Assembly (NCBI GenBank): GCA_000004985.1 | Contig: GG738868.1 | Strand: one strand, 5' to 3' | Source: Naegleria gruberi | Lineage: Eukaryota | Length of the DNA stretch: 64,000 nt | Shown: positions 5,757 through 30,077 of the stretch, piece by piece | Layout of the letters: each line of letters begins with the position of its first letter | Numbering within the stretch: the first letter of the stretch is position 1 | Position numbers and translations under genes: made by a program | Notes under the pieces: generated by a model | The model's database searches: none | What the model was told of the DNA's origin: nothing | Seen by the model: the letters and a program-made list of their open reading frames with translations, nothing else

Positions 5757-5895
5757 AGACACTCGCTCCATTGGTTTTCATCAACAGAAAATAGATGAAA
5801 ACCAGAAATTGGAACGATCTAAAAATTTGCTTACCGTTACAATTTCCATCAACTCTAATTTTCCAAAAAATAGAGGAAATAAATTATTAAAAAAA

Positions 5896-7864: not shown

Positions 7865-8023
7865 ATAAATGTTCCATTTGGTCAACCAATTCAATTGAAT
7901 CATTGTAATCATTCGCAGTTAGCAAATAAATGGACTAATTAACATTGCAACCAATCAACTGTGCATGTAACCCATATTGATAATATCATTACGGTAAACA
8001 CTTCATATTGGTTATAAAAAAAA

Positions 8024-9248: not shown

Positions 9249-9359
9249 ATATTTTATTGATAATTTAAATGAACTATCATGTGAATAGTATTATCTTCAC
9301 AATTTCAAATCTTAAAATATGTTTTTCTAAATTTTTGTTGAATTTCAAGCAACAAAAAA

Positions 9360-9856
9360 ATGGCCAGAAAGAACAATAAGAAAATAAAGAAGAGGTAAGA
9401 AAAATATTTGAACTTTTGCGATGCTGAGACAAAAATCAATTTCCGTTCGGTTTTTATTATTAATTTACCATCATGATTATTGATTGTGTAAAATCTTGTG
9501 GAACAAAACTTCGGATTGGATGTGATTAAAATTGTCATCAATTATTATTCAACAACAACAATAGATATAACGATTATTTACTCGAGGAAGAAAAGAGAGA
9601 CGAGGAAAAGAAAAAAGCCAAAGAAGAAGTTAGAAAACAAAAGAGAGAAAATGAAGAAATGTTGGATGAAGTTAAGAACAATCCTCTTGTAAAGGAAGCA
9701 AACAAACAAGCTAAAATAGCCGAAAAGAAGGAAGCCAAAAAGAAAAAGGATGAAGCTGCAATGCAAGATGTTCAATCAGAAGACAAAATGACAGACGAAA
9801 GTCAAGACGTTGAAAAACGACCAAGACGTCACAAGCAAAGAAATAAACCATACTAA
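9360..9856 (+). CDS. Small highly charged K/E-rich protein (about 109 aa), two exons: join(9360..9394,9565..9856).
   Basis: 'MARKNNKKIKKR|RYNDYLLEEEKRDEEKKKAKEEVRKQKRENEEMLDEVKNN…KRPRRHKQRNKPY*'. Exon 1 is 35 nt with a GTAAGA donor. The 170-nt intron ends CAACAATAG. The frame continues into the track ORF 9659..9856. The family is not recognised. Confidence 0.35.
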
Positions 9857-9857
9857 T

Positions 9858-11879: not shown

Positions 11880-12014
11880 TTTTTATTTATATTTTAATTC
11901 AAGTATTTATTATTAATTAAATTTACTATTTAAACTTTATATTTTGAATTAATAAAACAAGAGAAAGCCTTTGAATCAAGATGTTGATATGCTTTCAATT
12001 CCCATCTTTAAAAA

Positions 12015-12960
12015 ATGGAATTGGCAACACCACTTGCTAACAATACCCTCTCTGATGATCATCATGGTAAGTAGATGATGATCGGAACAAATATTGAACA
12101 ATTAGGAATTAATTAGATTATTCATTTCCTGATGATATTTGCTTTGAAATTTTGTCATTTCTTGATCCGTGGTCGATTTTGAAAAGTTGTTTATTAATTT
12201 CCAAGCAATGGATGACAATTATTGAACAACGTGTTCAGCTTTCGTTAGAGTTTACGGAAAGGATGAATTTAAGATCGAGCCAATTGTTTTTAAAGAGCCA
12301 ATTTTTAGGAAATATTATCAATCTACAATTATCAGATAAGCAGATGAGTCTTGAGGTTTGGGAAAATGTTGTGAATGCTCTATTGTCTATGGGGAAATTA
12401 AGAATATTGATGGTTGAGAATAATGTGGATATTGAGGGAGCTAAAGTTATTGGAAATATCAAAAGTTTAACCAAGCTCAATATTAATACCATGTCAGTTG
12501 ATTTTTATAGTAGATCTTTTTGCAGACAGGTAAAGAAGGAGCTGAATATTTAAGCGAATTAATCAATTTGAAAGATCTTGATATTTATGATGATAGTATT
12601 GGTGATGAAGGAGCTTTGTCAATTTTTAACTTGAGCAACCTTACCCACCTTGATATTTCAGCAAACGAAATTAGTGATGAAGCTGCGAAATCAATTGGTA
12701 ATTTAAAAAATTTGACTGTTCTTATAATTGGAGCTAATTTAATAAGTGATGAAGGTGTTAAACCAATCACTAATATGAGCCAACTGACTCATCTTGATAT
12801 CAGCAGCAACCTAATCAAATCCACTGGAGCAAAATCTATTAGTGAAATGAAGAATTTAACACATCTAGATGTTTTTGAAAATAATATTGGTGAAGAGGTA
12901 CTGAGTGGAATGAAAAATTTGAAAGAATTCAGAGAAAATTATTGGGACTTTATGAATTAA
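12015..12960 (+). CDS. F-box/LRR protein (ribonuclease-inhibitor-type 24-aa LRRs). Model: join(12015..12066,12117..12496,12526..12960). The last junction is a 29-nt GT..AG gap, which is anomalous.
   Basis: Exon 1 is 'MELATPLANNTLSDDHH' with a GTAAGT donor. Exon 2 is 'DYSFPDDICFEILSFLDPWSILKSCLLISKQWMT…' (F-box). The LRR units (L.NLTHLDIS.N.I…GAKSI) continue in a different frame from 12526. Removing 12497..12525 (gttgatttttatagtagatctttttgcag) restores exact 24-aa register (…LTKLNINTMS|TGKEGAEYLSELIN…). Confidence 0.5.
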
Positions 12961-12985
12961 ACAATTATTTGAAGACGTTATATAT

Positions 12986-14527
12986 TTAAGGTAATTTCAT
13001 AAGTCTGACAGTGTGGGCCATATGATTGACAGTTTCAGCACCAATTACTAAGACTACCAGATCGCCAGGTTGGGCAAATGACTTTTCAACCAAATATTTA
13101 CAACAAAGCTCTTCGACACTGTGAGGACCTGTGATGTAATCCGTGTTATGGATTAGTACAGGAGTAATTCCCCAACCTAATGTGAGACGATTGAATGTAA
13201 ATTCTTGATCTGTCAATGCAATGATTGGAACATTAGGTCTGTATTGAGAAATACTGACAGCTGTTTTCCCTGAATTAGTGATACAACAAATTAATTTAAC
13301 ACCAGAGTGCTTATTTGCAATAGTAGAAGCAGCCATGCAGCTAGCATTTTCAATAGAGTCAGTGGCATTACTGTTGAAATCATTCTCATGAGAGTCCAAT
13401 CTACCAAACTTGTGAGAATTGATGTCAGCTGTTCTCACAATTAAGTGCATAGTTTTGACAGAAAGAACTGGATATTTTCCCATAGCTGATTCATTACTCA
13501 ACATGACTACATCTGTTCCATCAAAACATGCATTGGAAACATCTGTAACTTCAGCTCTGGTTGGAATTTTACTTTCAACCATAGATTGCAGCATTTGGGT
13601 GGCTGTAATATCAATTTTACCTGCTTTGGAGGATTTTTCAATTAATTCCTTTTGGAAAATTGGTAATTCATGGAAATTAGTCTCAATCATCAAATCACCT
13701 CTATGTGAAATAATTATCAGAAAAAAAATCATTCTACAAACTTACCTTGCAACCATCAATCCATCAGCTTCCTTAAGAATGGCATCAATATTTCTAATAG
13801 CTTCAATTCTCTCAATTTTTGCAATAATTGGAATAGTTTTACCAGCAAATTTCATCATTAGATTCTTGGCATCAATAATATCTTGAGCAAATCTGACAAA
13901 ACTCAAACAAACATAATTAATTTCACCACATTTCATACCAAATTCCAAATCAGCAATATCTTTTTCTGTCAATGCAGGGGCTGAAATAGTTGCCCCTTCA
14001 TCAACCATATTAATTCCCTTTCTTTGAGATAACATTCCTCCTGTTACAACTTTACAAACCATTTCAGTTTCTTCTTGATTTTTAGAAACAACGTGCACTT
14101 CCAAATAACCATCATCAATCATTAATTTAGAGCCAGGTCTACAATCCCTAACCAAATTTGGATAAGAAGTAGAAACTTTTCTAGGTCTAGTTTCATTATC
14201 TTCACCACTCGCAATAACACTCTTATCTGTAGTGATCACAATTTCCTCTCCCTCAACAATCATGAAAGATTTACCCAATTTACCAATTCTAATCTTTGGA
14301 CCTTGAAGATCTTGAACAATTGCAAATGGAATTCCACCCAATTCCTTCTGTGCCTCTCTAATCTTTTGAATCGTCTCCAAATGAACGTTGTGTTCTCCAT
14401 GACTAAAGTTTAATCTAGCTGCGTTCATTCCTTCCATCATCATTTGCATTATTATAGATTTATCGGAAGAGCTTGGGCCGATCGTGCACAATATTTTGGT
14501 TCTTCTATCAGATGCTGTTCCGTTCAT
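12986..14527 (-). CDS. PYK: Pyruvate kinase. complement(join(12986..13700,13746..14527)).
   Basis: '…RTKILCTIGPSS…MNAARLNFSHG…GPKIR…MVA|RGDLMIE…' plus the C-terminal 'MLSNESAMGKYP…' are pyruvate kinase hallmarks. One 45-nt GTAAGT..CATAG intron splits the MVARGDLGIE motif in phase 2. Confidence 0.92.
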
Positions 14528-17628: not shown

Positions 17629-18388
17629 AAATTGGTGTACCCATTCCATAATTATTAATTTCAAAGATTATATTCAAAATCAACCTTGGAATTAAGGATG
17701 AAAATGAAAACTCTGAAAACGATAGACATCTGAATAGATTCTTTCTCTAAATTCTAAAAATCTCAATATTTTGACAATAAATATATCAAATCTAATCAAA
17801 TCATCATAACGATTTGAAAAACTCATTCAACAGATTGAACGACTACAATCCATTTCCTCAAAAGCTCACTCGTCAAAACTTGTATACAACCACATTTAGG
17901 ACACCACCTAAATTGGTGCCAACTGAGAGACAGTACCCACTAACTCCAACCATTCAAAACAACAACAAATTATCGATATTATTAGACTATTTGATTGCAA
18001 TATTAAATACTTACAAAACACATGTTTGGTTGGTATAATTAAAATGTTCCCGATTATTTTTACTTGCTTCCTTCTTAGGTGGTGAGAGAGGACACATCAT
18101 CAACAAAAGCCGCGCAAAAGAATGCCTGGTAGTAGCTATTATTAATTTTTTGCAACTCAAAAAAAAACCTTGCGCTTCTTTCCGCAATTACAAACACAAA
18201 AGAATCTTCGGGTGCTTAGCCTGCAAAGCGAATCACAACGACGACAACAACTTTTTTGATTGTTTTTATTTCCCTTGTTATAACAACAACCTGACATCTT
18301 TTTGGAACTTTTTGTTCGCAAAAGCAAATTATCATCCATAGTATTTTTTAATACGTAGTAGTAGTACAATAATTGAAATCACTTTGAA

Positions 18389-19089
18389 AATGCAATTGTT
18401 TAGAGATTTTAGTTTTTTGAATTCTCCGCATACAAATAATAAGAAATCTACTCAGGTTTCTTGTTACACTAAAGACACTTGTGGTGTTAAGGAGAACTTG
18501 TACTTCTTCAGTCATGATGACGGTAGAGGGCCTATTCGCTATTTTTGATGTGGCTCTTTTTACCTTGAAGGAAATGGATTTCCACTATCGTCCTCTTGCT
18601 ATGGACGACTCTAACCTCGACTCTCTCCAATATTCTCTCACTCAACAACTCGACCAATCTATGAATTTCCTTTCCAATACTACATTCAAAAATACCCAAA
18701 AACTTTCACCAAAATCTGTAATGTTTGTTTATACTATTGGTGATGAATTACCAGATTATGACGATGCTTCATCAGAATCATCATTGGAATCTGACTCAAG
18801 TGATGCTAATATTAGAACTGGATTTACTGGTATTATCGACTTTGAAAAGAACGAAATGACAATTTATCCACCTTCTAATTCTTCATGCATGAATAAGGAT
18901 TCTGTTATTAATCTTATGGACATGGCTGATTGCCTCGGTATTTCAACTTTGTACATGTGTATTGAAAAGAACCATCAAGAAATTAGAGAGTTTTCTCGTG
19001 GTTTCATTTATGCTGGTTTCGAATTGATACAACCAAAGATTAAGCAATTGTCTTCAACTGAATGGGTTGTTTTTGGTGCTGAATTGTAA
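18389..19089 (+). CDS. OAZ: Ornithine decarboxylase antizyme (OAZ). The antizyme domain is encoded from 18547 (or ATG 18513) to 19089. A candidate short ORF1 runs join(18389..18410,18475..18548) and ends at a +1 frameshift site, UUU-UGA-U (18543..18549).
   Basis: The C-terminal '…LMDMADCLGISTLYMCIEKNHQEIREFSRGFIYAGFELIQP' matches the antizyme signature (…LLEFAEE.L…HVF.CFHKNR.DRA.LLRTFSFLGFEIV.P). The zero frame is open for 43 codons up to TTT-TGA-T, then the +1 frame (GAT GTG…) carries the homology for 180 codons. Confidence 0.7.
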
Positions 19090-19502: not shown

Positions 19503-22500
19503 CTAATCAGAGTCTGTACTTGCATCTCCATAATCATCTTCCTCTTCAACCTTCATAGTTTCTTCTTCCTCAGGATCACTATCACCATTGTCATCAATAT
19601 TGTCTTCCTCCTCTTCTTCATTCTCCTCATCACTGTCAAAATCAACTCTTTTTTTAGCCTTATAATTAATCAGAGAAGGATTCATTGAAGAGGTATATCC
19701 AAAACAGAATACTTGAAAACCACCAACTCCATTCAACAACATTTGAGTTTTTTCACAAATTTCCAATTCACACCATCCTCTTTCAGCTGCCTCCTTCTTT
19801 GTTGGAGTTGGATTTTTCTTTCCTGGATTGGCACTAACTGTGAGTAAGGTTTCCTTTCTCAATTGATTTTCTGGTTCTTCCCAAAAGTCATCTGAGCTAA
19901 TTGGTAAAATACCTTCCATAGAAGGTAAGAAATAAGTATTCACAGCAGAAGTCAAATAGGAAATAGTATGGGTTGGTCTCTTGAGATTATGAATCTTGTT
20001 TTTCAAACTATCATTCACTTGATAGTTCCACATAGCTACTCTTCCAATATGTTTCTTATTGTCAAATATGGATTCCAACTGTTCAACCAAAAATCTTGCA
20101 ATTTGAATGTCAGGATTGTTGAGTTGAATTTCTTTCAATAATTCAATAAATTGTTGAGGATTGTGAATTATTAATTTAAGAGTTGATTCTGAGGATACTT
20201 CATTAGTAATTTCTGTTATTCTACTATTATACTTTTTTCTTGATGGACCTTTGATCGATTTGATATATTCATCCAAAATGTCCAACAAGTGAAATCGTCC
20301 ATTTCCCAATTCTTCAATGATTTGATCAGTCAAATTGTATTTTAACTTGAGTATTTTCAAGCAATTAGCTGCAAACTCCGGTTCCAGTAGAATTTCTTTC
20401 AACTTTGCAAATCTAACCCTAGAAACGTTTGGATTAAATAGCTCAGTATGTAAAACTTTTTCCATAAATTGTAAACTTCTGAGCATTGATGTTTCATGTG
20501 AAACAAACAATTTTTGTTGTCTACTATATTCATAAAATTCTAAAATGTCATCTTGAATAATATGAATGCATTCAAGTTTAAGAAATTGACCAATTGCCAA
20601 AATTGAGGAATGAACAATGCCAGGTCCAAGAGGCATATTAGATTCCAAAACAATAAAATTGTAGTCATCCACTCTATTTCCATTAGATATAATCCATTTC
20701 TTATATCTATTGATATATTTTGATTCTGTTACAATGGTTACACAATTTGGAATTGAATCTGAATGCAGCTTCTTCACGAAATTAGAATAGAGATAAGGTT
20801 TCCAAAATTTTCCTCTTGGTCTTGATTTGATAAATAGAGGTTTCAATCCATCACTAGTGAGCGTTGAAATCTGTTTCAGTTTAGTCAAAAAGCTTTCTTC
20901 ATTATAGGAAATTTCTAGAATTTCATCATCTCTATTAAACTTGACCAATATTTCGTTATCATTCGAATAGTTTCTATCCATTACTTTAACAGGAATTGTG
21001 TATCTATCTCTCTTCTCGAATTTGAATTTCAACAAGGCATCGTTATGTGAGCAAAATGATTTTTGTTTTTCTTGCTTTTTTGCTTTCTTCTTTTCCTTCT
21101 TCTTCTTTTCCTTCTTTTCAGGGACAGGAGGTCTTAAATCAGTTACACTTTCAGATTCTTTATCTGGAAGATCTAATTTACATTCTTCCAATCTTTGTGG
21201 GAATGGATATTTGTCTTCAATGATTACCTCACCAATTGATGATTTCTTATTTTGGTACTTTGTCAATAGTTGTTTAACATTTTTGTGTAAACCAAAACTC
21301 AATTCTTCCCATGATTGGACAGTTTCCTCAAATTGAACACTAAAATCATGTTCAAAATCTTCCACTGCTTGCACAATATCTAGAATTATCTTTTCCTTTG
21401 ATTTGTCCTTTTCCTCAAAATTTGGATTCAAAGAATAGCACAAAGACTGGACCCACTCTAATGGAATGATAGTATCACTTCTCAGGTATGATTCTTGCAA
21501 AATAGATGTTAATTTGGCTTGGAATCTTTTAGTAAGAGTGTTGAAACAACTTAAAAAGCTCTCTAATTTTAAAAAAAACCCACTGTTAAAATACCCAAAG
21601 CATTGCTTCCACCTCTTGATTCTCTGTGGTACTTTCAATTGGTTTAGTTTCTTTTGTTTTGTTTTTTTCAATTCAGGTACAATTTCTTTCCTTTGAAAAC
21701 CTAATACAATAGGATTGGTGTAATAGGATGAAAACTTCTTTACGAAAGAATCTATTGTCTTTTCTTTTAAGGCATCCACATCAGGTATATTTTCTTTCAA
21801 TCCATCAATAACACTTTGCAATTTCTTCTGAATTTTCTGGATACATGACTTCAATTCTTTCACGAACTTTAATGGAAACTTTTGTACTTTCTTAATAGTT
21901 GTATTAGACAGTACAACAATAGCCATGTCTCTTAATTGACTAATATTGTTTGATATAATCTTTTTTCTATTGTTTTCAATAATTGATTGTAAATTGGAAA
22001 CAAAGTGATCTCTCATTTCAACGTTGTTAGGTGGTGGAAAACAAACTAAATCAAAATTATCATATAATCCCTTTACAAAATCATACTTGTTTTCCATATC
22101 AATTTCATTGGTATTGATATTATTGGCTTCTAATTCCAAGTCGAAAGGGACATCATCTAGCTCACAATCGAAATGAAAAGCAAGTTGCTTTCCATATGAT
22201 TCTTTCATGGGTTTGAAAACGTTTTTTGTCATAACCTCATTCTTGTAGCTCTCCTCATTCATTACCTTATTATTAGCTAAGATTGCAATGTAAGGTTGAT
22301 GGGTTTGTTGTGGTTGATGGATACCATAATCCCACACCTTTTGTACAATACCATCATCAAGAATGATCCTTTCATTTTCAATACCACACAATAACAAGCA
22401 GGTGTCATATAAACTTTCTCTTATCAAATGCTTGTAGGATACATTTTCATGGACATTTACTGGATCAGTAGTTTGCTTTTCATCATATCCAGGCATATCT

Positions 22501-23243
22501 CTGAGAATTATTTTGCTCCTTTGAAGGAACTTGGAAGGGATTTTCAAGATTAACTTCTTAATATGGACTTTCTTAAAGTTGGTGTCAGCATCAAACTCTA
22601 AAATCTTGTTACGTGCTTTAGTGGCCAGAAATTCATAAAGTTCCTCTTCAGAATTTCCATTGTCAATAATATAATTTGATTGATTGTCAATTTCACAATC
22701 TTTCAAAGTATCAGTAGCAAGTTGTTCAACTTTCCTTGCACACAACTCTTGTTGTGAACAATACTGAACAGTCAAACTGTAAGTTGGTGAATACTCAACA
22801 TCAACAACTGTACGTGTCAAACCCTTTCCAAACTGAACAGCAGAAGGAAGAGGAGCATTAGTCATTTTGAAATCAGACAACAATTGATCAATGATGAAGG
22901 ATTTACCATATCCTGGCTTACAAAACAGGGTAACCACAACTTTGCCCCGAAAATCCTTGATGATTCCCTCCATAGACTCTAAATGTTCAGAACACATTGT
23001 CCTAATGGATCCCTTCTTATTGGAACCGTTTAAATGTTCCTTGTAGAATGTTTTAACCTTATCAAAATCCTCAGTTTCTGTCTTCATTTGTTTATCCTCC
23101 TGCTGTTCATTGCCATTCTCTGGTGATGGGTCCATTTTGATTTTCTTGGGTGCTTGTTCTGTAGATGATGAAGCAGTTGCAGCAGCAGCAGCAGTAGCAG
23201 TAGTAGCACTCGGAGAGTGAGTAATCTTTCTCTTTCGAAGCAT
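19503..23243 (-). CDS. Large (1246 aa) TRAFAC-type GTPase of a septin/AIG1(GIMAP)-like 'DMPG' family, with a poly-Ala/Thr N-terminus and an acidic C-terminal tail.
   Basis: True ATG at 23241-23243. G1 is 'LFCKPGYGKSFIIDQLLS', a G2-like segment is 'GLTRTVVDVE', and G3 is 'ILRDMPGYDEK' (hhhD.PG, as in septin DTPGFG or GIMAP DTPGLFD). The C-terminus '…DSDEENEEEEEDNIDDNGDSDPEEEETMKVEEEDDYGD' is strongly acidic. Confidence 0.6.
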   Translation of the reverse strand: MLRKRKITHSPSATTATAAAAATASSSTEQAPKKIKMDPSPENGNEQQEDKQMKTETEDFDKVKTFYKEHLNGSNKKGSIRTMCSEHLESMEGIIKDFRGKVVVTLFCKPGYGKSFIIDQLLSDFKMTNAPLPSAVQFGKGLTRTVVDVEYSPTYSLTVQYCSQQELCARKVEQLATDTLKDCEIDNQSNYIIDNGNSEEELYEFLATKARNKILEFDADTNFKKVHIKKLILKIPSKFLQRSKIILRDMPGYDEKQTTDPVNVHENVSYKHLIRESLYDTCLLLCGIENERIILDDGIVQKVWDYGIHQPQQTHQPYIAILANNKVMNEESYKNEVMTKNVFKPMKESYGKQLAFHFDCELDDVPFDLELEANNINTNEIDMENKYDFVKGLYDNFDLVCFPPPNNVEMRDHFVSNLQSIIENNRKKIISNNISQLRDMAIVVLSNTTIKKVQKFPLKFVKELKSCIQKIQKKLQSVIDGLKENIPDVDALKEKTIDSFVKKFSSYYTNPIVLGFQRKEIVPELKKTKQKKLNQLKVPQRIKRWKQCFGYFNSGFFLKLESFLSCFNTLTKRFQAKLTSILQESYLRSDTIIPLEWVQSLCYSLNPNFEEKDKSKEKIILDIVQAVEDFEHDFSVQFEETVQSWEELSFGLHKNVKQLLTKYQNKKSSIGEVIIEDKYPFPQRLEECKLDLPDKESESVTDLRPPVPEKKEKKKKEKKKAKKQEKQKSFCSHNDALLKFKFEKRDRYTIPVKVMDRNYSNDNEILVKFNRDDEILEISYNEESFLTKLKQISTLTSDGLKPLFIKSRPRGKFWKPYLYSNFVKKLHSDSIPNCVTIVTESKYINRYKKWIISNGNRVDDYNFIVLESNMPLGPGIVHSSILAIGQFLKLECIHIIQDDILEFYEYSRQQKLFVSHETSMLRSLQFMEKVLHTELFNPNVSRVRFAKLKEILLEPEFAANCLKILKLKYNLTDQIIEELGNGRFHLLDILDEYIKSIKGPSRKKYNSRITEITNEVSSESTLKLIIHNPQQFIELLKEIQLNNPDIQIARFLVEQLESIFDNKKHIGRVAMWNYQVNDSLKNKIHNLKRPTHTISYLTSAVNTYFLPSMEGILPISSDDFWEEPENQLRKETLLTVSANPGKKNPTPTKKEAAERGWCELEICEKTQMLLNGVGGFQVFCFGYTSSMNPSLINYKAKKRVDFDSDEENEEEEEDNIDDNGDSDPEEEETMKVEEEDDYGDASTDSD

Positions 23244-23847
23244 TTTTTTTGTGGTTATTTTAAACTATGACGAAGAGTCCCAGCAAGAAATAGAAATTCG
23301 GAAATTAGAAATTTTGTCCGGAAAACAAATACAGAACAAACCTTTTTGTTTGCATGCAAATAGTGATTGAAACATTACAATTAAAGTTGAAGTTCCGACT
23401 GTAAATTGTTCTGAGAACAAGAATTCTAGTATGTAATTTAAATATTCATGAAAAAGCAATTCGTTGAAATTTGTAAAAGCTGGTTAATTTTGCACAAAAC
23501 ATTATTAAAATTGGAATAATATTATTCGTCAGCACACAACTTGATTAGTTTTGTATCTGTGATACGCTAGTAAATGTCATCGCGAACACAAGCTATAATT
23601 TTTACTAGTTCTGATTTTTTGAAAGGTATTTTGTTTATTTACAATTTCTCAGTTAGTTACCATGACGATTTACAATTTCTGATTTCAGTTACCATTTATT
23701 CTTTTACAAAGTTGATTCAAAAAGCTTGTCTTGCAACTTTTTTTCCAGATATTCAAGTTCTTATAAATCTCAGCAAGAGGTGCTGCTGCTTCTAAATCAA
23801 AAAAAGTAGAGTTGGAATAAAGAGTTGTTTATTTTGGAATTGTTCAA

Positions 23848-25146
23848 TTAATCATGAGACTTTTCATAATTATTATTTTTCTTAATAATTTGAATGGTAC
23901 TAGTTTGGGCCGAGGAAATTTTAGCATGTGCTACCTCAACCAACTTCAAAAGTAATTTCAAATGCATGTATTCGAAAATCTTGACAATTTCCTCATTTTT
24001 ACATTGGAATTTGGAAATGAATGGAATTGGATAGTCAGCAGAAACGATATTCTCAAAGTTTCCATCGCCCGTCTCTAAAATATCCCATTCATAGAACAAT
24101 TTCAATACATTGGCTTTGGTGATTTCAATTGGAACTTCATCTTGAGTTCTCATATCAAGTATTGGAACACTCTTCTCAATGTAATCTCTGAAAATGGAAT
24201 GGCCATCAATTTTAGAGTAGCAATAAATGCACGAGGTGGAGAATTCAGAGGAAATATAGGATGGAATCGATGTATAATAGTCAAGCATGGTTTCCTTAGT
24301 TTTAGATTCTGTTGAGAACATGGTTGGATTGTTAATAGGAATTGGAACAAACACAGCATGAGGAGCATCAAATTCTTGTGCAACTTGTTCAAAAACTGTC
24401 TTGAATAAATATTCAGAAAATTCAAACTTCTCAATGAGTTGCTTTTCGTTATCGAATTTGAAAAATCCTGGCATATCTTGAAGATAGATCTTTTCAAATT
24501 TTTCGACATCATCAATTGGGATCTTGGATACATCCTTAGTGAATGAATTGAGATAGTCTTTGGACGGATTTTTAGCATCAGAGAGGATCTTGTAGGCCAT
24601 TTCCATGAAACTTGCACTACCTTCCTTAAATGGAACTCGTTTTGATTTGAGTGTTTTAAGAATTCTATTCAAGATGGTTGATTTTCCACCAGATGCAATG
24701 GAGACACCAGCCAAAGTGATTTGATTATCACCAATCATCTCCAATTGAGTAATAATCTGTTCCTTCAGCATTTCACAATTAAAATCAATGTGTAACAGTT
24801 CTGTTGTTTCCTTTTTGAGAGATTGTACCATTACATTTTCAACTGAGTGAACTACTATTCCATCCAAAGTTTCAATTCTTGCATTGAACAGAATATTTTC
24901 TGGAACAATAATAGAACATCTAGCTTCCTTGGTTTCTTGATCATAACCATCTCCTGCCACAAAGAGCTTTTTTACAATTTTCTTATCGAGATAGCTTACA
25001 ACTACTTTGAAAGCTGTGTGGGCAGTTTCATTCACGATAGTGTTAAACTTGAATTGAAATATAACCTTGGCTAATCTGGTAATATGATGTGAAGGGTTGA
25101 ATCTTGGTGGTGTAACTTTGGTTTCGGCTGAGTATTGGTTTCCCAT
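23848..25146 (-). CDS. Small (432 aa) paralogous TRAFAC-type 'DMPG' GTPase. It is predicted to be N-myristoylated (MGNQYS).
   Basis: True ATG at 25144-25146. G1 is 'GVSIASGGKSTILNRILKTL' (compare septin GESGLGKSTLIN) and G3 is 'IYLQDMPGFFKF'. It shares the P-loop plus DMPG[FY] arrangement with the 1246-aa neighbour. Confidence 0.6.
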   Translation of the reverse strand: MGNQYSAETKVTPPRFNPSHHITRLAKVIFQFKFNTIVNETAHTAFKVVVSYLDKKIVKKLFVAGDGYDQETKEARCSIIVPENILFNARIETLDGIVVHSVENVMVQSLKKETTELLHIDFNCEMLKEQIITQLEMIGDNQITLAGVSIASGGKSTILNRILKTLKSKRVPFKEGSASFMEMAYKILSDAKNPSKDYLNSFTKDVSKIPIDDVEKFEKIYLQDMPGFFKFDNEKQLIEKFEFSEYLFKTVFEQVAQEFDAPHAVFVPIPINNPTMFSTESKTKETMLDYYTSIPSYISSEFSTSCIYCYSKIDGHSIFRDYIEKSVPILDMRTQDEVPIEITKANVLKLFYEWDILETGDGNFENIVSADYPIPFISKFQCKNEEIVKIFEYMHLKLLLKLVEVAHAKISSAQTSTIQIIKKNNNYEKSHD

Positions 25147-25526: not shown

Positions 25527-26261
25527 TTATTGAGATGATTGCCTTAATATTTCATTTGCCTTATTTGAAATTTCATAATCTCCAAATCCTTTAATTGCTA
25601 TATATGGAAAATCAGAAGAAATACCATATTTAACTAGCAATATATCAGCTCCATTTGCATGTTCGCTATTTAGTTTTTTCGCACTTCTTGTTGGTTCAAA
25701 AGCAATTTGTCTCATTTTGACCTTTTTTTTAAGTTCACTTATCTTGAAAATCGTTTGAATTTTCTCATCCAATTTGGAATGATTGCAATTATATCCCAAA
25801 TAATACAAATTCTTAATTACTATTGATTCAGTTTCCCTCATAGCTTCGTTTACAGGTGTTTCTTGCGTTTTCTCTACATTCTTCTGATTTTCTTCATCAT
25901 CAGTTTCCTTTCCATGTGTTTCACCATTTTTCTTGACATTCTTCAATTTAGATTCGTCCACATATTCCTGAATTGGTACAATAGCAGCAGAACTTGTCGA
26001 ATGATCAACGCTCATCGTATTATAGTTGGTATTTTGATTTTCCTTATTGAATTCTTTTGATTCTTCATCCACTTGACTAGGATTTCTACACAATTTACCA
26101 ACTACAAGTGCAGGTTGATTGAAAACCAACAATGCCATCAACATCATTTGTAAATAAACAATATATGGAAGTAAGCCAACCAATAAGAAACCCAAAAAGA
26201 AGGCAACAAGTACATTTCGTTGATCCAAACATGTCTGAAAAAGATAGAGTGGTAGAAACAT
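25527..26261 (-). CDS. Single-pass membrane protein A (244 aa): an N-terminal TM, a low-complexity linker and a conserved 100-aa C-terminal domain of unknown family.
   Basis: True ATG at 26259-26261. The TM segment is 'VLVAFFLGFLLVGLLPYIVYLQMMLMALLV'. The C-terminal domain is 'SIVIKNLYYLGYNCNHSKLDEKIQTIFKISELKKKVKMRQIAFEPTRSAKKLNSEHANGADILLV…FPYIAIKGFGDYEISNKANEILRQS'. Confidence 0.55.
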   Translation of the reverse strand: MFLPLYLFQTCLDQRNVLVAFFLGFLLVGLLPYIVYLQMMLMALLVFNQPALVVGKLCRNPSQVDEESKEFNKENQNTNYNTMSVDHSTSSAAIVPIQEYVDESKLKNVKKNGETHGKETDDEENQKNVEKTQETPVNEAMRETESIVIKNLYYLGYNCNHSKLDEKIQTIFKISELKKKVKMRQIAFEPTRSAKKLNSEHANGADILLVKYGISSDFPYIAIKGFGDYEISNKANEILRQSSQ

Positions 26262-26649
26262 GATCTATTGTAAGTTAAAGAGAAATAATGAACTGGCCTT
26301 CTCATTGAGAAGAATTTGCTTGAATAATTTCCATTTTCCAGTTTCTGATGTTTCGTCGGCCATAGAATCGGCCCTTTTCACAAAACACAACATGATTGGG
26401 AAGAGATTGGCCAATAAACAAAGTAGGAAATGTGAGAAACCATATTGTTGAGTGGTTCTGAAGGAAAGTGTCTCAAGTTTCGTATAGGTCATCATACGAG
26501 AATATAACTTTAATTTTTTTCAATACCTCTCTTCCAAACGTGATTCAAATATTTTGATTTATTTTCATACCTTTCTTCCAAACGTGATTTTGAAAAACGT
26601 GTAAGTTTACAATCCACCAGTATTCGAAACGTGATTCACTTTAAAAAAA

Positions 26650-27339
26650 ATGCTCAAATTTATTAGTGGAGTTGTTTGTGGAAGTGGAATTACAACACTA
26701 GCCCAGTTCTATGTATCGTCAACCAAATTAGAGAGTCCACCAGGCAGTGAAATTTCACAAGTTGAACCTTTACATGTTGTGATGAATGATTCAACTCCAT
26801 CACCCAGTCATTCATTGGCAATTCCAAGTACGGATTCATCTCTAAATGTTATAGGATTGACTTTGGGAGGAAATTTTGTTTTGATTTGGGTGGTGTTGTG
26901 GGAAGTGGGTAAAATCTTATTTGGTAAGAAGAACGAGAAAAGGGAAATGAGAAAGGAAGAAGCTCAACAAGACGAAACAACAAAACTGAATAATTCTGAA
27001 GGAAAAATTGAAACTGAATCAAGTATCATTAAGAATTTGTATTATTTGGGATATAATTGCAATCATTCCAAATTGGATGAGAAAATTCAACAGATTCTCA
27101 ATACTAATCAACTTGAAAAAAAGGTCAAAATGAGACAAATTGCTTTTGAATCAACGAGAAGTTTGAAAAAGCCAACAAGTGAACATGCGAATGGAGCTGA
27201 TATATTGCTAATTCCTTCTGGAGATTGTCTTTTTATGGATATTCCATATATAGCAATGAAAGGATTTGGAGAATATGAAATTTCAAATAAGGCTATTGAA
27301 TTATTGAAACAATCTGTACAAATAAATTCAAATTATTGA
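26650..27339 (+). CDS. Single-pass membrane protein B (229 aa), an inverted head-to-head paralogue of protein A with the same C-terminal domain.
   Basis: The C-terminal domain is 'SSIIKNLYYLGYNCNHSKLDEKIQQILNTNQLEKKVKMRQIAFESTRSLKKPTSEHANGADILLI…IPYIAMKGFGEYEISNKAIELLKQS', about 70% identical to A over 100 aa. The TM segment is 'LTLGGNFVLIWVVLWEVGKILF'. The two start codons are 388 bp apart. Confidence 0.55.
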   Translation: MLKFISGVVCGSGITTLAQFYVSSTKLESPPGSEISQVEPLHVVMNDSTPSPSHSLAIPSTDSSLNVIGLTLGGNFVLIWVVLWEVGKILFGKKNEKREMRKEEAQQDETTKLNNSEGKIETESSIIKNLYYLGYNCNHSKLDEKIQQILNTNQLEKKVKMRQIAFESTRSLKKPTSEHANGADILLIPSGDCLFMDIPYIAMKGFGEYEISNKAIELLKQSVQINSNY

Positions 27340-28184
27340 AGATTATTCTGGGATGAACACAAAAAACGAGTAAAGCATGTTAATGGTGGAAGATTGATGA
27401 TGGAAATGGCTTTATATAATAAGGATGAGGTATTAAGCCATTTTTTGATATTGTTCAACAGTAATAGTTTTCTCTCGTTTATCGGAGCCGGACAGATATT
27501 AATGTCATTGAATTTTATTAAGGATTCCCACATGAAAACACTAACTCATGTTAATTGCTGACTGCTGACGAATATATCAGCAGGTTCCATCATCACATGG
27601 ACATTCACATAAGAACATGTCGTATTAATTGATGATACAACCAGTGAAGTGTTATGGTTGTTAGACGTAAAAAAGATTAACATAGAAAATTCATCTTCTT
27701 TATCTTCTAATTGAATTCATTCTTTGAATATTATTCATATTGGTTTGTTGTATTCTTTGCATGGTCTGATTATGTGTACGAATATTATTCATATGAGTTC
27801 TATGATTACTTTCATTGGTTCTTCTGATGGTTTCATTGGTTCTCCTGATAGTTTCTTGGGTTATTTAATTACTTTGAGAGAACAGCCAAGTCACAAAGCA
27901 TGGACACAACAAACCAGGTGCTTTTGGAACTTGTGACACTATTCATCAAACTTTAATTTGAGTGAGTTACTAAACTTTATCTTCACATTTATCGGAAACA
28001 GTGCAACCAACCAAACAATTGGATTTGTGCAAGTATTGTAAAGTGCGTATCCAAAACCAAGTTGACCAATAGAAGGACAACCAGGTTCTTCCGATGTTAC
28101 AATCACTAGTTTTGAAGATTACATTTCGCGACTCATAAATCGCCTTCAAAGCTGAATAAGGGAAAATTGTTTCTTTCAAAAAAA

Positions 28185-30077
28185 ATGTCTTCACTGCATA
28201 CTACTAAGAAGGAAACCAAACCAACAAGAAGACCTCTATCTTCAGCAGCTAAGAGATTACTTGAAGATTTGAAACAATTAAATCGTCAAAGTGAGCTCAA
28301 ATACATATCTGCTCAACCACTGTCTAATAATTTATTTGAATGGCATTGTAATCTGTATGGAAATGAAGAATCCATGTATAAGGAGTGTTGTTATCATTTC
28401 ATTATCAAGTTTCCAAAAGATTATCCTCACAATCCACCACAAATTGAAGCATGTTCTGATTTGTTACATCCACAAGTTTACAATAGAAAAGTATGCTTGG
28501 AATTGACTCAACAGAAGGAAGGCACCGAAGAGAATGCAGATGGATGGAGTTGTTCATATACTGTATTTTCAATTCTAATGCAATTGCAATCTTTCTTATT
28601 CGATTCCAAGGTCTCTAATAGACCAATGATTAAAATTGAGCAAAAAGATGCATACAATGTAAAATGCAGCAAATGTGGGCATGTACCAAGAGATGGTAAC
28701 ATATTTCCATATCATGAAATGAATTCCATTTGTTTCTCAGAGTTAAAAAAGGAATTGAGGAATTCTAGACCATCTAAATCAAGTAATAGGAAAAAGGAGA
28801 GAAGTAATATTGTAATTATTGAAAATGAAGAAGATATTGAAAAGATGTACTCAAATCAATCAGGACAATCCACTAGTTCTGTTCCAATCAAGAATGGAAA
28901 TACAATTTCCAAACAAGTACTTTTTCACATTTTCAAATTCTTGGAAAAATCAGAATTGGATTCGACCATGTTTAAAGTTTGCAAGGAATGGAAGGAAATT
29001 TCTCAACATCCTCTCTTTGGTAATAGAGAAAGAATTTGTTACTTTACAAAACAACCATGCAGAGATGAAGAAACCATTTTAGGATATGGTGTCGAACCAA
29101 AGTTTACAAAAACTGGAAGATTGATTAATATTGATTCACCTTATGAATATCTATCTTTTCATTCGTTTAGAAATTTGAACGTGAGAACTAGTGTTTGGAA
29201 TATTTCCTTCCAAAATTGGATTCCAATTCCAGTATTTACAATTCAAATTGGAAATGAATTGAAAAATGTGGAAGAATATTTGTTTAACCTATTTAAGGAT
29301 TGTGTATCAGAAATATATTACTTTCTTCAAAGTGATTCAACAGTTGAATTTCAATCTCTTGATTTGTTAGGTAAAATGATGAACTCTATAATTATTAACA
29401 TTCTCAGAAATCAAAGTCATGCATCTGTCAAAGCACTTGATGCCTACATCAATTTACACAGATGGTTAATTATGTTATGTGAAAAGTATCCAAATGTACT
29501 TTTACTCATTGATGAGAAAATTGAAAAATTCATCCAAGATGAAGAATTTAGAAGTAAGGAACATGTCCCTGCCCTTGGAGAATTCCTCTGCTTACTCTCA
29601 GTTTCAGAAAAGTTCACTTGGGATGAGATGGCACCTGCTATTATTAAGGAATCTCTTGATAGAGGAAGTTTGTGGGGTGTCTTTTCAAATGAAAAATTGA
29701 AAGATGTGATTGAATATCATTTGGAGGAAGATAAGGAAAGAGAACGAATGATTAATACATTCGAGGCAACAAAATCTAATCTGCATAATTTAGCTTTCCA
29801 TAGTTTCCTAATTAGATATTTCAGAATGAAAACTAGAGTTGAAACTGCTGAATATTATGATAGAAATTACTTGACTCCATATATTGTAAATTCAAATGAG
29901 AAGGATCAAGAGAGATTGAGAAGTGCTCTTGTGGAAATTCAATCCAAGATTATTAACTATTATGAATTCTTCAAATATGTTCAAAATGTTGAATTGGATG
30001 AGATTTCAATCATGTTAAAATTAAGAGTTGCCATGAAGAATATGAAAAGAAGAGGATATTATGAAGAAAATAAATAG
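28185..30077 (+). CDS. Ubiquitin-conjugating (UBC/E2) domain protein with a C-terminal extension that contains an F-box-like motif (630 aa).
   Basis: The E2 core is '…AAKRLLEDLKQL…LFEWHCNLYGNEESMYKECCYHFIIKFPKDYPHNPPQIEACSDLLHPQVYNRKVCLEL…WSCSYTVFSILMQLQSFL' (HPN-like loop, active-site Cys, conserved Trp). An F-box-like 'QVLFHIFKFLEKSELDSTMFKVCKEWKEISQHPLF' follows. The true ATG is at 28185. The track start at 28167 is TTG. Confidence 0.65.
   Translation: MSSLHTTKKETKPTRRPLSSAAKRLLEDLKQLNRQSELKYISAQPLSNNLFEWHCNLYGNEESMYKECCYHFIIKFPKDYPHNPPQIEACSDLLHPQVYNRKVCLELTQQKEGTEENADGWSCSYTVFSILMQLQSFLFDSKVSNRPMIKIEQKDAYNVKCSKCGHVPRDGNIFPYHEMNSICFSELKKELRNSRPSKSSNRKKERSNIVIIENEEDIEKMYSNQSGQSTSSVPIKNGNTISKQVLFHIFKFLEKSELDSTMFKVCKEWKEISQHPLFGNRERICYFTKQPCRDEETILGYGVEPKFTKTGRLINIDSPYEYLSFHSFRNLNVRTSVWNISFQNWIPIPVFTIQIGNELKNVEEYLFNLFKDCVSEIYYFLQSDSTVEFQSLDLLGKMMNSIIINILRNQSHASVKALDAYINLHRWLIMLCEKYPNVLLLIDEKIEKFIQDEEFRSKEHVPALGEFLCLLSVSEKFTWDEMAPAIIKESLDRGSLWGVFSNEKLKDVIEYHLEEDKERERMINTFEATKSNLHNLAFHSFLIRYFRMKTRVETAEYYDRNYLTPYIVNSNEKDQERLRSALVEIQSKIINYYEFFKYVQNVELDEISIMLKLRVAMKNMKRRGYYEENK

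What the first reader, a model, noticed from the sequence alone, without database searches (positions are those of the whole stretch)
19503..25146. Two adjacent, same-strand paralogous GTPases with a septin/GIMAP-like 'DMPG' G3 motif (one 1246 aa, one 432 aa and N-myristoylated)
Both minus-strand genes carry a P-loop (FCKPGYGKSFIIDQLL and GVSIASGGKSTILNRIL) followed by hhhDMPG[YF] (ILRDMPGYDEK and IYLQDMPGFFKF). This is the G1-G3 arrangement of the septin / AIG1-GIMAP / Toc branch of TRAFAC GTPases rather than Ras or dynamin (DLPG). Beyond the G-domain they are highly divergent. The large one has a poly-Ala/Thr N-terminus, about 900 aa of unique sequence and a strongly acidic tail. The small one begins MGNQYS, a myristoylation consensus. 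They sit 600 bp apart, upstream of a duplicated membrane-protein pair (25527..27339). GIMAP/AIG1-type GTPases are immunity or stress effectors in plants and vertebrates. A lineage-specific expanded pair here may mark an analogous, undescribed module.
Basis: partly seen in the sequence, partly recalled or inferred. Interest (0 to 1): 0.7.

Follow-up and report, generated by a model that had tools for sequence, protein, structure and literature searches.

The report
Dynamin-like GTPase fused to glycosyltransferase
The large gene of this Naegleria gruberi pair encodes an uncharacterised protein that joins a mitofusin/dynamin-type GTPase to a glycosyltransferase domain of the kind that sugar-coats modified DNA bases in phages and trypanosomes, while the small neighbour is a species-specific orphan with only GTPase-like motifs; the two are not demonstrable paralogues and not septin/GIMAP-like.

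Summary
The window is Naegleria gruberi DNA. Both ORFs and all quoted motifs are present as described.

**Large protein (NAEGRDRAFT_49157, 1246 aa).** It belongs to a small eukaryotic family found in Heterolobosea, the blastoclad fungus Paraphysoderma, and unnamed environmental eukaryotes.
- **N-terminus:** a dynamin-superfamily GTPase. G1, the G2 threonine and G3 are invariant. Homologues pass Pfam Dynamin_N. The best solved relatives by sequence are EngA/Der and mitofusin; septin and Toc34 match only at the P-loop.
- **Middle:** a predicted helical region.
- "DMPG" is a sub-clade variant of the family's DxPG.

**Small protein (NAEGRDRAFT_58069, 432 aa).** No homologue was found anywhere. It resembles GTPases weakly, at G1 and G3 only. 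No relative of it lies next to homologues of the large gene in other species. Paralogy and a two-gene "module" are therefore unsupported.

**Most likely function of the large protein:** a nucleotide-gated, self-assembling glycosyltransferase. The substrate (hydroxymethylated DNA bases or proteins) is unknown, and its active site is partly altered.

The parts
19503..23243 (-). Large gene NAEGRDRAFT_49157 (1246 aa): dynamin-like GTPase + helical middle region + TAGT-type GT-A domain + acidic tail
   Evidence: ORF. 100% identical to the N. gruberi protein EFC44504.1/XP_002677248.1. Family of 42 representatives found by profile search.
23064..23243 (-). N-terminal low-complexity leader (residues 1-60): MLRKRK, Ala/Thr run, PKKIKMD (NLS-like basic patches)
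   Evidence: Read directly from the sequence. Not conserved in homologues. The NLS reading is inference only.
22044..22991 (-). GTPase domain, dynamin superfamily (mitofusin/BDLP-like), residues ~85-400
   Evidence: Family N-domain profile against PDB: EngA/Der 1.1e-9, mitofusin-2 1.3e-9, MFN1, IRGs, cyanobacterial BDLP Slr0869 1.8e-4. Pfam Dynamin_N above cut-off in homologues.
22878..22925 (-). G1 / P-loop, FCKPGYGKSFIIDQLL (residues 107-122)
   Evidence: G111, G113, K114 invariant and S115 nearly invariant in 14 homologues.
22809..22853 (-). G2 / switch I, PLPSAVQFGKGLTRT (residues 131-145), with invariant T143
   Evidence: Alignment A4. Resemblance to dynamin 'LPRGSGIVTRRP' is from my own knowledge. 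Aligned with the mitofusin-2 switch I stretch.
22476..22508 (-). G3 / switch II, ILRDMPGYDEK (residues 246-256)
   Evidence: D249 and G252 invariant, P251 nearly so. The x of DxPG varies among members.
22266..22286 (-). G4-equivalent strand, AILANNK (residues 320-326). It aligns with mitofusin 'FILNNRWD' but lacks a conserved Asp.
   Evidence: HMM alignment to MFN2. Column not conserved in A4.
20874..22043 (-). Middle region (residues ~401-790), predicted long helices (stalk-like). Lys-rich insert [19 protein letters not shown] at residues 710-728 (21060-21116).
   Evidence: Low-confidence AF2 model with long helices at pLDDT 50-70. The insert is absent from homologues. No transmembrane segment.
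19686..20858 (-). C-terminal GT-A glycosyltransferase domain of TAGT/JGT type (residues 796-1186) with a ~150-residue helical insert
20526..20561 (-). DxD-type metal/nucleotide-sugar motif region, IIQDDILEFYEY (residues 895-906). D898, D899, E905, Y906 kept; family consensus is DDDIxxFxEY.
   Evidence: Alignments A6/A4. In the model it sits at the end of a strand, between strands at model residues 97-102 and 105-112.
19506..19646 (-). Acidic C-terminal tail (residues 1200-1246)
   Evidence: 27 D/E among the last 47 residues.
23848..25146 (-). Small gene NAEGRDRAFT_58069 (432 aa): orphan with GTPase-like G1 and G3 motifs
   Evidence: ORF. Only a self-hit among 5.8e9 proteins. No relative in viral or metagenome contigs. 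Pfam MMR_HSR1 at E=0.027, 15 bits, below the 21.9 cut-off.
24658..24708 (-). Small protein G1-like motif, GVSIASGGKSTILNRIL (residues 147-163)
   Evidence: Matches the family HMM G1 segment.
24454..24489 (-). Small protein G3-like motif, IYLQDMPGFFKF (residues 220-231)
   Evidence: Matches the family HMM G3 segment.
24199..24231 (-). Small protein candidate G4, CIYCYSKIDGH (residues 306-316): a hydrophobic strand followed by SKID
   Evidence: Read by eye only. No homologue or structure is available to test it (for position).
25129..25146 (-). MGNQYS N-terminus, fits the N-myristoylation consensus G-{EDRKHPFYW}-x-x-[STAGCN]-{P}
   Evidence: Sequence. The consensus is from established knowledge (PROSITE PS00008). 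Not tested.

Best explanation
The large gene encodes a soluble three-part protein.
1. An N-terminal GTPase domain of the dynamin superfamily, closest to the mitofusin/bacterial-dynamin-like branch, with intact G1, G2 and G3.
2. A helical middle region, plausibly a dynamin-type stalk.
3. A C-terminal GT-A glycosyltransferase domain of the TET/JBP-associated (TAGT/JGT) type. It retains the Asp-Asp and Glu-Tyr of the catalytic R...DDD...E[Y/F] pattern.

The inferred working model is a nucleotide-gated glycosyltransferase. GTP (or ATP) binding and hydrolysis would drive dimerisation or assembly through the G domain and stalk, as in other dynamin-superfamily proteins. That would position or switch the GT domain, which transfers a sugar from a nucleotide-sugar to its acceptor. 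By analogy, the acceptor is either a hydroxymethylated pyrimidine in DNA (as for phage TAGT and kinetoplastid JGT) or a protein hydroxyl (as for GREB1).

Shown here: domain identities, fold, conserved residues, family distribution. Inferred: coupling of the two activities, substrate, cellular location.

The small neighbouring gene encodes a species-specific orphan. It probably has a divergent GTPase-like core (G1, G3, possible G4) and a myristoylation signal. It is not linked to the large gene by any evidence other than position.
For: GTPase domain:
- G111, G113, K114, T143, D249 and G252 are invariant across 14 full-length homologues.
- The N-domain profile hits EngA/Der at 1.1e-9 and mitofusin-2 at 1.3e-9. 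The mitofusin alignment covers both G1-G2 and G3-G4. MFN1, IRGs and a cyanobacterial BDLP also hit.
- Pfam Dynamin_N is above its cut-off in P0009 (43.4 bits), P0025 (51.3 bits) and P0039 (27.2 bits).
- UniProt names two paralogues 'Dynamin N-terminal domain-containing protein'.

GT domain:
- AF2 model with pLDDT 87.8 and pTM 0.86.
- Foldseek against viral models: the top full-length matches are phage TET-associated glycosyltransferases, probability 1.0, E from 3e-6 to 1e-3.
- Pfam TAGT hits 8 of 40 homologues. P0039 carries both Dynamin_N and TAGT.
- PHROG 842, a hydroxymethylcytosine glucosyltransferase family, hits 4 members.
- Most columns conserved in the family are kept in this protein: D898, D899, E905, R922, T1091, H1092, S1095, G1156, G1172.

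Other:
- No transmembrane segment.
- Family distribution: six N. gruberi paralogues, plus N. lovaniensis, N. fowleri, Willaertia and Paraphysoderma.
- Small protein: HMM score 9.4 bits in two colinear pieces, reached by at most 1 of 1000 shuffles. MMR_HSR1 at E=0.027.
Against: - The window protein itself gives no Pfam hit at E<=1. The family assignments are transitive, through homologues and profiles.
- The N-terminal and middle parts have no confident structure model. The whole-protein model had pLDDT 40.
- The G4 guanine-specificity Asp is not conserved, so nucleotide preference is uncertain.
- In this sub-clade the GT active-site pattern is altered: GRKR is replaced by G-I-V-H, and DDD by QDD. 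A sister clade has lost the pattern entirely. The domain could therefore have changed donor or be catalytically dead.
- No TET/JBP gene lies nearby in the window.
- There is no experimental or expression information, and no paper mentions either gene.
- For the small protein there is no homologue and no structure. The Walker A starts with Ser instead of Gly/Ala, and no clear G2 Thr can be aligned.
Confidence: 0.7

Rival explanations
1. The two genes are a tandem pair of paralogous septin/AIG1-GIMAP/Toc-type GTPases forming a lineage-specific, possibly immunity-related, module.
For: Both carry a P-loop and the unusual DMPG followed by an aromatic residue. They are adjacent on the same strand. 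There is weak colinear G1+G3 similarity above shuffles. The family is expanded and fast-evolving in N. gruberi, with paralogues only 37-40% identical.
Against: - No Septin or AIG1 Pfam hits. Dynamin_N hits instead.
- Septin and Toc34 reach only E about 0.011 at the P-loop, against 1e-9 for mitofusin.
- Pairwise and profile comparisons do not support homology beyond the motifs.
- The HMM of the neighbour's own sub-clade scores the small protein no better than the HMM of the other members.
- Adjacency is not conserved in three other loci.
- PADLOC gives nothing.
Confidence: 0.05
2. The C-terminal GT-A domain of this particular paralogue is a pseudo-enzyme or a ligand-binding module. The protein would act mainly as a dynamin-like mechanochemical or scaffold GTPase, without glycosyl transfer.
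For: In the 49157 sub-clade the conserved Arg residues of GRKR are I876 and H878, and the first Asp of DDD is Q897. The 58724/75306 clade has lost the motif altogether, which shows that the family tolerates loss of catalysis. Other conserved positions have also changed: R->T1098, Q->A1100, D->S1117. A review states that metazoan JGT homologues were once predicted to be inactive (PMC11065753).
Against: D898, D899, E905, Y906, T1091, H1092 and the GVGG motif are retained under long divergence. GREB1, also once predicted inactive, was reported to be an active O-GlcNAc transferase (PMC7968844).
Confidence: 0.25
3. The small ORF is not a GTPase at all. The GGKST and DMPG strings are chance or convergent motifs in a young orphan protein of another (or no stable) fold.
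For: No homologue in 5.8e9 proteins or in metagenome or viral contigs. Pfam MMR_HSR1 is below its cut-off. No PDB sequence relative. The Walker A first position is non-canonical and no G2 can be aligned.
Against: - G1 with the GKSTxxN helix start, G3 preceded by a hydrophobic strand, and a hydrophobic strand + SKID at G4 distance occur in the right order.
- The family HMM finds G1 and G3 colinearly, with at most 1 of 1000 shuffles reaching the score.
- A 1299-nt open frame in 33% G+C DNA is far too long to be non-coding. This is my own estimate from base composition, about 1e-14.
Confidence: 0.35
4. The small gene is an eroded partial tandem duplicate of the G domain of its neighbour. Paralogy would be true but now nearly undetectable.
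For: Same strand, 604 bp apart. It shares the rare Met in DxPG and an aromatic residue after the Gly, a signature of the neighbour's sub-clade only. The invariant Pro of the family 13 residues before D249 has a counterpart 14 residues before the small protein's Asp. All best non-self phmmer hits of the small protein are G3 segments of family members.
Against: None of these hits is significant (E>=0.08 in a 70-sequence set). The sub-clade HMM gives 5.2 bits (6/1000 shuffles), lower than the HMM of the other members at 7.3 bits. G1-G3 spacing differs: 69 against 135 residues.
Confidence: 0.15

Closest known systems
Mitofusin / Fzo / bacterial dynamin-like proteins (dynamin superfamily, Pfam Dynamin_N PF00350)
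   Same: The G domain has GxxxxGKS, a switch-I Thr and DxPG. The best extended PDB sequence matches are mitofusin-2 and mitofusin-1, and a cyanobacterial BDLP also hits. A long helical region follows the G domain (low confidence). The G4 strand aligns with mitofusin 'ILNNRWD'.
   Different: No transmembrane or paddle segment. The G4 Asp is not conserved. It carries a C-terminal glycosyltransferase domain that, to my knowledge, no characterised dynamin-superfamily protein has. It is restricted to a few protist and fungal lineages rather than being universal.
Phage TET-associated glycosyltransferases (TAGT, Pfam PF20691) and kinetoplastid base-J glucosyltransferase JGT
   Same: GT-A fold, with full-length structural matches to phage TAGT models. 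Pfam TAGT and PHROG 842 hit family members. The family consensus GRKR...DDD...EY corresponds to the R...DDD...E[D]Y/F active-site pattern described for phage GT-A DNA glycosyltransferases and T. cruzi JGT (preprint 10.1101/2023.12.21.572611).
   Different: TAGT and JGT are stand-alone enzymes of ~250-300 residues. Phage TAGT genes lie next to TET/5mYOX genes. Here the domain is fused to a GTPase, carries a ~150-residue helical insert, has no TET neighbour, and in this paralogue has I/H for the Arg residues and Q for the first Asp. DNA as substrate is untested.
GREB1 / GREB1L (animal estrogen-induced O-GlcNAc transferase)
   Same: A eukaryotic multidomain protein with an N-terminal P-loop NTPase-type module and a C-terminal GT domain related to TAGT/JGT. 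'GREB1-like proteins' are reported from 'Naegleria-like Heterolobosea' (PMC7968844).
   Different: According to that paper GREB1 has a Zn-binding domain plus a circularly permuted, inactive superfamily-II helicase domain. Here the N-terminal module is a dynamin-type GTPase with intact catalytic motifs. Whether the Naegleria proteins meant in that paper are this family could not be checked (supplement not held).
Septins / AIG1-GIMAP / Toc34
   Same: TRAFAC-class P-loop GTPases with a DxPG-type G3.
   Different: Only P-loop-level similarity, E about 0.011 against 1e-9 for mitofusin. No Pfam Septin or AIG1 hit in any family member.

Membership tests
Dynamin superfamily (Pfam Dynamin_N; mitofusin/BDLP branch) - large protein | G1 P-loop GxxxxGK[ST] | tested here: met
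   KPGYGKS. G111, G113, K114 are invariant in 14 homologues. The first position is Cys in this protein and A/G/S/N in others.
Dynamin superfamily (Pfam Dynamin_N; mitofusin/BDLP branch) - large protein | G2 switch-I threonine and G3 DxxG | tested here: met
   T143, D249 and G252 are invariant. They align to the mitofusin-2 G2 and G3 regions.
Dynamin superfamily (Pfam Dynamin_N; mitofusin/BDLP branch) - large protein | G4 [NT]KxD / mitofusin NRxD with guanine-specifying Asp | tested here: not met
   The aligned segment is AILANNKV. No Asp is conserved in this column across the family.
Dynamin superfamily (Pfam Dynamin_N; mitofusin/BDLP branch) - large protein | Profile score above Pfam's curated threshold | tested here: inconclusive
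   The window protein has no hit at E<=1. Homologues P0009, P0025 and P0039 are above the 27-bit cut-off. Membership is therefore transitive, through a family with E down to 1e-238.
Dynamin superfamily (Pfam Dynamin_N; mitofusin/BDLP branch) - large protein | Large G domain followed by a helical stalk/bundle; nucleotide-dependent G-G dimerisation | tested here: inconclusive
   The low-confidence model shows long helices after the G domain. Dimerisation cannot be tested with these tools.
Septin / AIG1-GIMAP / Toc34 | Profile similarity to Septin or AIG1 families beyond the P-loop | tested here: not met
   No Pfam Septin or AIG1 hit for either window protein or for 40 homologues. PDB septin-2 and Toc34 reach E about 0.011 over profile positions ~9-62 only.
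TAGT / JGT-type GT-A glycosyltransferases - large protein C-domain | GT-A (nucleotide-diphospho-sugar transferase) fold | tested here: met
TAGT / JGT-type GT-A glycosyltransferases - large protein C-domain | Specific similarity to TAGT rather than to other GT-A families | tested here: met
   Foldseek top full-length hits are phage TET-associated glycosyltransferases. Pfam TAGT hits 8 of 40 homologues, best 27.0 bits against a 27.5 cut-off. PHROG 842 hits 4 of 24. The window protein itself gives no Pfam hit.
TAGT / JGT-type GT-A glycosyltransferases - large protein C-domain | Active-site pattern R...DDD...E[D]Y/F (preprint 10.1101/2023.12.21.572611) | tested here: inconclusive
   The family consensus GRKR...DDD...EY is present in the Willaertia, Paraphysoderma and unnamed members. 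This protein has G-I-V-H...QDD...EY.
TAGT / JGT-type GT-A glycosyltransferases - large protein C-domain | Genomic or functional association with a TET/JBP dioxygenase; DNA hydroxymethylpyrimidine as acceptor | tested here: not met
   No TET/JBP-type gene among the window's ORFs. One N. lovaniensis homologue lies just downstream of an AlkB-type 2OG-Fe(II) oxygenase gene, a single case. Acceptor specificity cannot be tested with these tools.
GREB1 | N-terminal Zn-binding domain plus circularly permuted inactive SF-II helicase domain before the GT domain (PMC7968844) | tested here: not met
   The N-terminal module is a dynamin-type GTPase. No Pfam GREB1-type hits in the 40 homologues scanned or the window protein at the thresholds used.
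TRAFAC GTPase - small protein | G1, G3 in order on a P-loop core; profile score above threshold | tested here: inconclusive
   GGKST and DMPG match the family HMM colinearly (9.4 bits, at most 1 of 1000 shuffles). MMR_HSR1 scores 15 bits against a 21.9 cut-off. No PDB relative.
TRAFAC GTPase - small protein | G-domain fold (structure) | not tested
There are no homologues from which to build an alignment.

The most novel reading that the evidence does not exclude
The heterolobosean dynamin-TAGT proteins could be GTP-gated DNA glycosyltransferases. They would add sugars to the hydroxymethylated pyrimidines made by Naegleria's own TET-like dioxygenases. That would be a base-J-like hypermodified DNA base pathway outside Euglenozoa, with a mechanochemical GTPase controlling where or when DNA is glycosylated.

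Weak support:
- TAGT, JGT and HMC-glucosyltransferase affinities of the domain.
- NLS-like basic tails in many members.
- An AlkB-type oxygenase gene next to one homologue.

Nothing here tests the substrate.
Probability: 0.12. Interest if true: 0.85.

Novelty: new variant of a known kind. Interest (0 to 1): 0.5.

Why it matters
Both domain families are known. Their fusion is not described in any paper I could search, and the window protein is annotated only as 'predicted protein'.

Naegleria has biochemically characterised TET-like enzymes (reference cited), but no known downstream base glycosylation. A TAGT-type domain tied to a dynamin-type GTPase gives a concrete candidate to test for two things:
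- DNA or protein glycosylation in this lineage.
- A new way of regulating a glycosyltransferase, by nucleotide-driven assembly.

The family also shows a natural series from a canonical to a modified to a lost GT active site. That series is useful for asking what the GTPase-stalk part does on its own.

For the genome scan, the lesson is that short motif reading assigned the wrong GTPase branch and missed the main domain.

Tried and rejected
- **Whole-protein AF2 with a 3-sequence alignment:** pLDDT 40, unusable for fold search.
- **afdb50 fold library:** unavailable, so GREB1 and JGT AlphaFold models could not be compared directly.
- **Foldseek against PDB:** gave only partial nucleotidyltransferase-type matches. 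No solved TAGT relative exists.
- **C-domain profile against PDB sequences:** nothing.
- **Third large homology search, with the C-domain alignment:** returned only one protein, so it added no named GREB1 or JGT relatives.
- **Genomic context of N. gruberi paralogues:** not on record.
- **Contexts in N. lovaniensis, Willaertia, Paraphysoderma and an unnamed relative:** no conserved neighbour.
- **Small protein:** no hits in viral or metagenome contigs, PDB, NCBIfam or PADLOC.
- **Specific paralogy test:** the small protein scored 5.2 bits against the HMM of the DMPG sub-clade and 7.3 bits against the HMM of the other members. This is no evidence for specific paralogy.
- **Key computational paper on TAGT/GREB1 (Iyer et al., NAR 2013):** not held, so I could not check whether the GTPase fusion was already noted there.
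- **Considered and rejected:** a membrane-anchored mitofusin-like role (no hydrophobic segment); a prokaryotic or viral origin of the window (ordinary eukaryotic neighbours).

Full report
**Source and observation.** The window is AT-rich (about 33% G+C) and densely packed with long intron-free ORFs. Both ORFs of the finding are 100% identical over their full length to Naegleria gruberi gene models. The 1246-aa protein is NAEGRDRAFT_49157 (EFC44504.1) and the 432-aa protein is NAEGRDRAFT_58069 (EFC44505.1). Neighbouring ORFs are ordinary eukaryotic genes: ODC antizyme, a UBC E2, Gaa1, NXF1-like, PI3-kinase, FtsH-type protease, Myb, pyruvate kinase and others. The genes are 604 bp apart on the minus strand. 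Of 75 stop-free stretches of at least 100 aa in the window, only these two combine a P-loop with a downstream D.PG.

**Are they paralogues?** BLASTP gives only a 31-residue match around DMPG, E=0.19. Profile-profile comparison aligns only the P-loop, at 2.6% and 19.6% probability. An HMM of the large family's N-domain scores the small protein at 9.4 bits in two colinear pieces, G1 and G3. This is reached by 0/500 and 1/1000 shuffles. The small protein therefore has GTPase-like motifs in the right order. But an HMM built only from the neighbour's DMPG sub-clade scores it lower (5.2 bits) than an HMM of the remaining members (7.3 bits). The similarity is generic, and paralogy is not demonstrated.

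**The large protein's family.** The word-indexed search found only two relatives: N. gruberi NAEGRDRAFT_80834 at 37% identity and N. lovaniensis C9374_000185 at 29%. A profile of these three, run against 1.84 billion representative proteins, found 42 proteins. These include about 15 full-length proteins of 980-1660 aa and many short or fragmentary proteins matching only the C-terminal 200-300 residues. Named members are as follows:
- Six N. gruberi paralogues: 49157, 80834, 74876, 47587, 58724, 75306.
- N. lovaniensis: 000185 and 003664.
- N. fowleri: FDP41_003141 and FDP41_003142.
- Willaertia magna.
- The blastoclad fungus Paraphysoderma sedebokerense: three genes, two of them in tandem.
- Paulinella micropora, C-domain only.
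- The rest are unnamed environmental sequences.

A rough NJ tree puts 49157 with 80834. It puts N. lovaniensis 000185 with 74876, 47587 with Willaertia, and 58724 and 75306 with N. lovaniensis 003664.

**N-terminal domain.**
- In 14 full-length members, G111, G113 and K114 (G1), T143 (G2) and D249 and G252 (G3) are invariant.
- The residue between D and P varies: DLPG, DVPG, DIPG, DTPG, DAPG, DSPG, DMPG.
- Pfam gives nothing for the window protein itself. Dynamin_N is above its curated cut-off in P0009 (Willaertia), P0025 (N. gruberi 75306) and P0039, and is precomputed for P0030. No member hits Septin or AIG1.
- The N-domain profile searched against all PDB sequences gives EngA/Der at 1.1e-9 (summed over its two G domains). 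It gives mitofusin-2 at 1.3e-9, with both the G1-G2 and G3-G4 segments aligned. Mitofusin-1, Nug1, IRG proteins and a cyanobacterial BDLP (1.8e-4) follow. Septin-2 and Toc34 appear only at E about 0.011, over the P-loop.
- The G4 strand aligns with mitofusin 'FILNNRWD' but lacks a conserved Asp. Nucleotide specificity is therefore open.
- The protein has no hydrophobic segment of transmembrane strength.

**Middle region.** The whole-protein AF2 model was poor (pLDDT 40). Its best part, at pLDDT 50-70, consists of long helices after the G domain. That is compatible with a dynamin-type stalk but not proof of one.

**C-terminal domain.**
- Homologues hit Pfam TAGT (TET-associated glycosyltransferase) in 8 of 40 cases. 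One protein, P0039, carries both Dynamin_N and TAGT.
- Four of 24 C-domains hit PHROG 842, beta-glucosyl-HMC-alpha-glucosyltransferase.
- With a 24-sequence alignment, AF2 gave a confident model of residues 796-1186: pLDDT 87.8, pTM 0.86.
- Foldseek against viral models finds, over the full length and with probability 1.0, phage 'TET-associated glycosyltransferase domain-containing proteins' and phage glycosyltransferases.
- No solved structure is a close relative.
- The domain has a helical insert of about 150 residues between the DxD strand and the second half.
- A preprint on phage DNA glycosyltransferases gives the GT-A DNA-GT/JGT active-site pattern as R...DDD...E[D]Y/F (10.1101/2023.12.21.572611). 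The family consensus here is LGIGRKR...DDDIxxFxEY.
- The window protein keeps D898, D899, E905, Y906, R922, T1091, H1092, S1095, G1156 and G1172. It has I876 and H878 in place of the two Arg residues, and Q897 for the first Asp. The 58724/75306 clade has lost the motif entirely.

**Small protein.** Only a self-hit was found among 5.8 billion proteins. Nothing was found in PDB, NCBIfam, PADLOC or viral and metagenome contigs. Pfam MMR_HSR1 is below threshold, E=0.027. By eye, the order of elements fits a G domain:
- a hydrophobic strand followed by GGKSTILN;
- a hydrophobic strand followed by DMPG;
- a helix;
- the strand AVFVPIPI;
- a helix;
- the strand CIYCY followed by SKID.

MGNQYS fits the myristoylation consensus. 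No relative of the small protein lies within 10 kb of homologues of the large gene in N. lovaniensis, an unnamed relative or Willaertia. Adjacency is therefore not conserved.

**Mechanism.**
- Shown: a soluble protein combining a dynamin-superfamily G domain with intact G1-G3, a helical region, and a TAGT-type GT-A domain with a partly modified active site.
- Inferred from established knowledge of dynamin-superfamily proteins (nucleotide-dependent G-G dimerisation and stalk-mediated assembly) and of GT-A enzymes (a DxD-bound metal and nucleotide-sugar donor): a nucleotide-gated or assembly-dependent glycosyltransferase.
- The acceptor is unknown. Relatives act on 5hmC or 5hmU in DNA (phage TAGT, JGT) or on protein (GREB1; PMC7968844).
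- Weak hints of a nuclear role: NLS-like basic tails in many members and basic patches in this protein, and an AlkB-type oxygenase gene directly upstream of one N. lovaniensis homologue.
- A pseudo-enzyme reading of this paralogue's GT domain remains a serious rival.

**Comparison and novelty.** GREB1 is the closest known architecture in spirit: an NTPase-type module plus a TAGT-like GT. The GREB1 paper states that GREB1-like proteins occur in 'Naegleria-like Heterolobosea'. But GREB1's N-terminal module is a Zn-binding domain plus a permuted inactive helicase domain, not a dynamin GTPase. I found no paper in the held library that describes a dynamin-TAGT fusion or mentions either gene. The 2013 computational paper that defined TAGT is not held, so prior mention there cannot be excluded. 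I rate this a new variant of known kinds and give it moderate interest.

Noticed in passing
window 18300-19089 (+), site at 18543-18549: ODC antizyme gene (Pfam ODC_AZ on ORF 18481-19089). An upstream ORF in another frame ends at TTT TGA (18543-18548). Skipping the T of the stop joins it in frame to the antizyme ORF (...GPIRYF|DVALFTLKEMDF...). This is a candidate programmed +1 ribosomal frameshift site, 'UUU UGA U'.
   Followed up: partly
window 25527-26261 (-) and 26650-27339 (+): A divergently transcribed pair of paralogous genes, 62% identical over the C-terminal 133 residues. Each has one strongly hydrophobic N-terminal segment and no Pfam family. What they are is unknown.
   Followed up: partly
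window 28167-30077 (+): A 636-aa protein with a ubiquitin-conjugating E2 core (UQ_con, 2e-22), followed by a weak F-box-like match and a long unassigned C-terminal region. This is an unusual E2 architecture.
   Followed up: no
window 1940-3319 (-): A 459-aa protein with AAA_22/NACHT-like (STAND-type) P-loop matches.
   Followed up: no
window 12986-13732 (-) and 13742-14527 (-): Pyruvate kinase is split over two adjacent ORFs: the barrel N-part, then the barrel end plus the C-domain. This probably reflects a short intron between them.
   Followed up: no
L001 (N. lovaniensis PYSW02000009.1) 8242-9027 and 10001-13588: An AlkB-type 2OG-Fe(II) oxygenase gene (PF13532) lies directly upstream of, and on the same strand as, the family member C9374_000185. 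A ZNF598-type RING gene is next to it. This is a single case, not seen at the other loci.
   Followed up: partly
L005 (Paraphysoderma sedebokerense JAHLJZ010000108.1) 3906-6413 and 7263-11526: Two family members in tandem. A 691-aa protein matching only the C-terminal domain lies directly upstream of the full-length 1204-aa GTPase-GT protein.
   Followed up: no
alignment A4, C-termini of P0003, P0009, P0011, P0017, P0024, P0030, P0032 and P0012: Many family members end in an acidic stretch followed by a KKRKK-type basic tail (NLS-like). The window protein has only the acidic part, but it has basic patches at its N-terminus and a Lys-rich insert at residues 710-728.
   Followed up: no
P0018 (unnamed environmental C-domain protein): A B-box-type zinc finger is inserted into the helical insert of the TAGT-like domain (Pfam zf-B_box/ANCHR-like_BBOX hits; sequence).
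   Followed up: no
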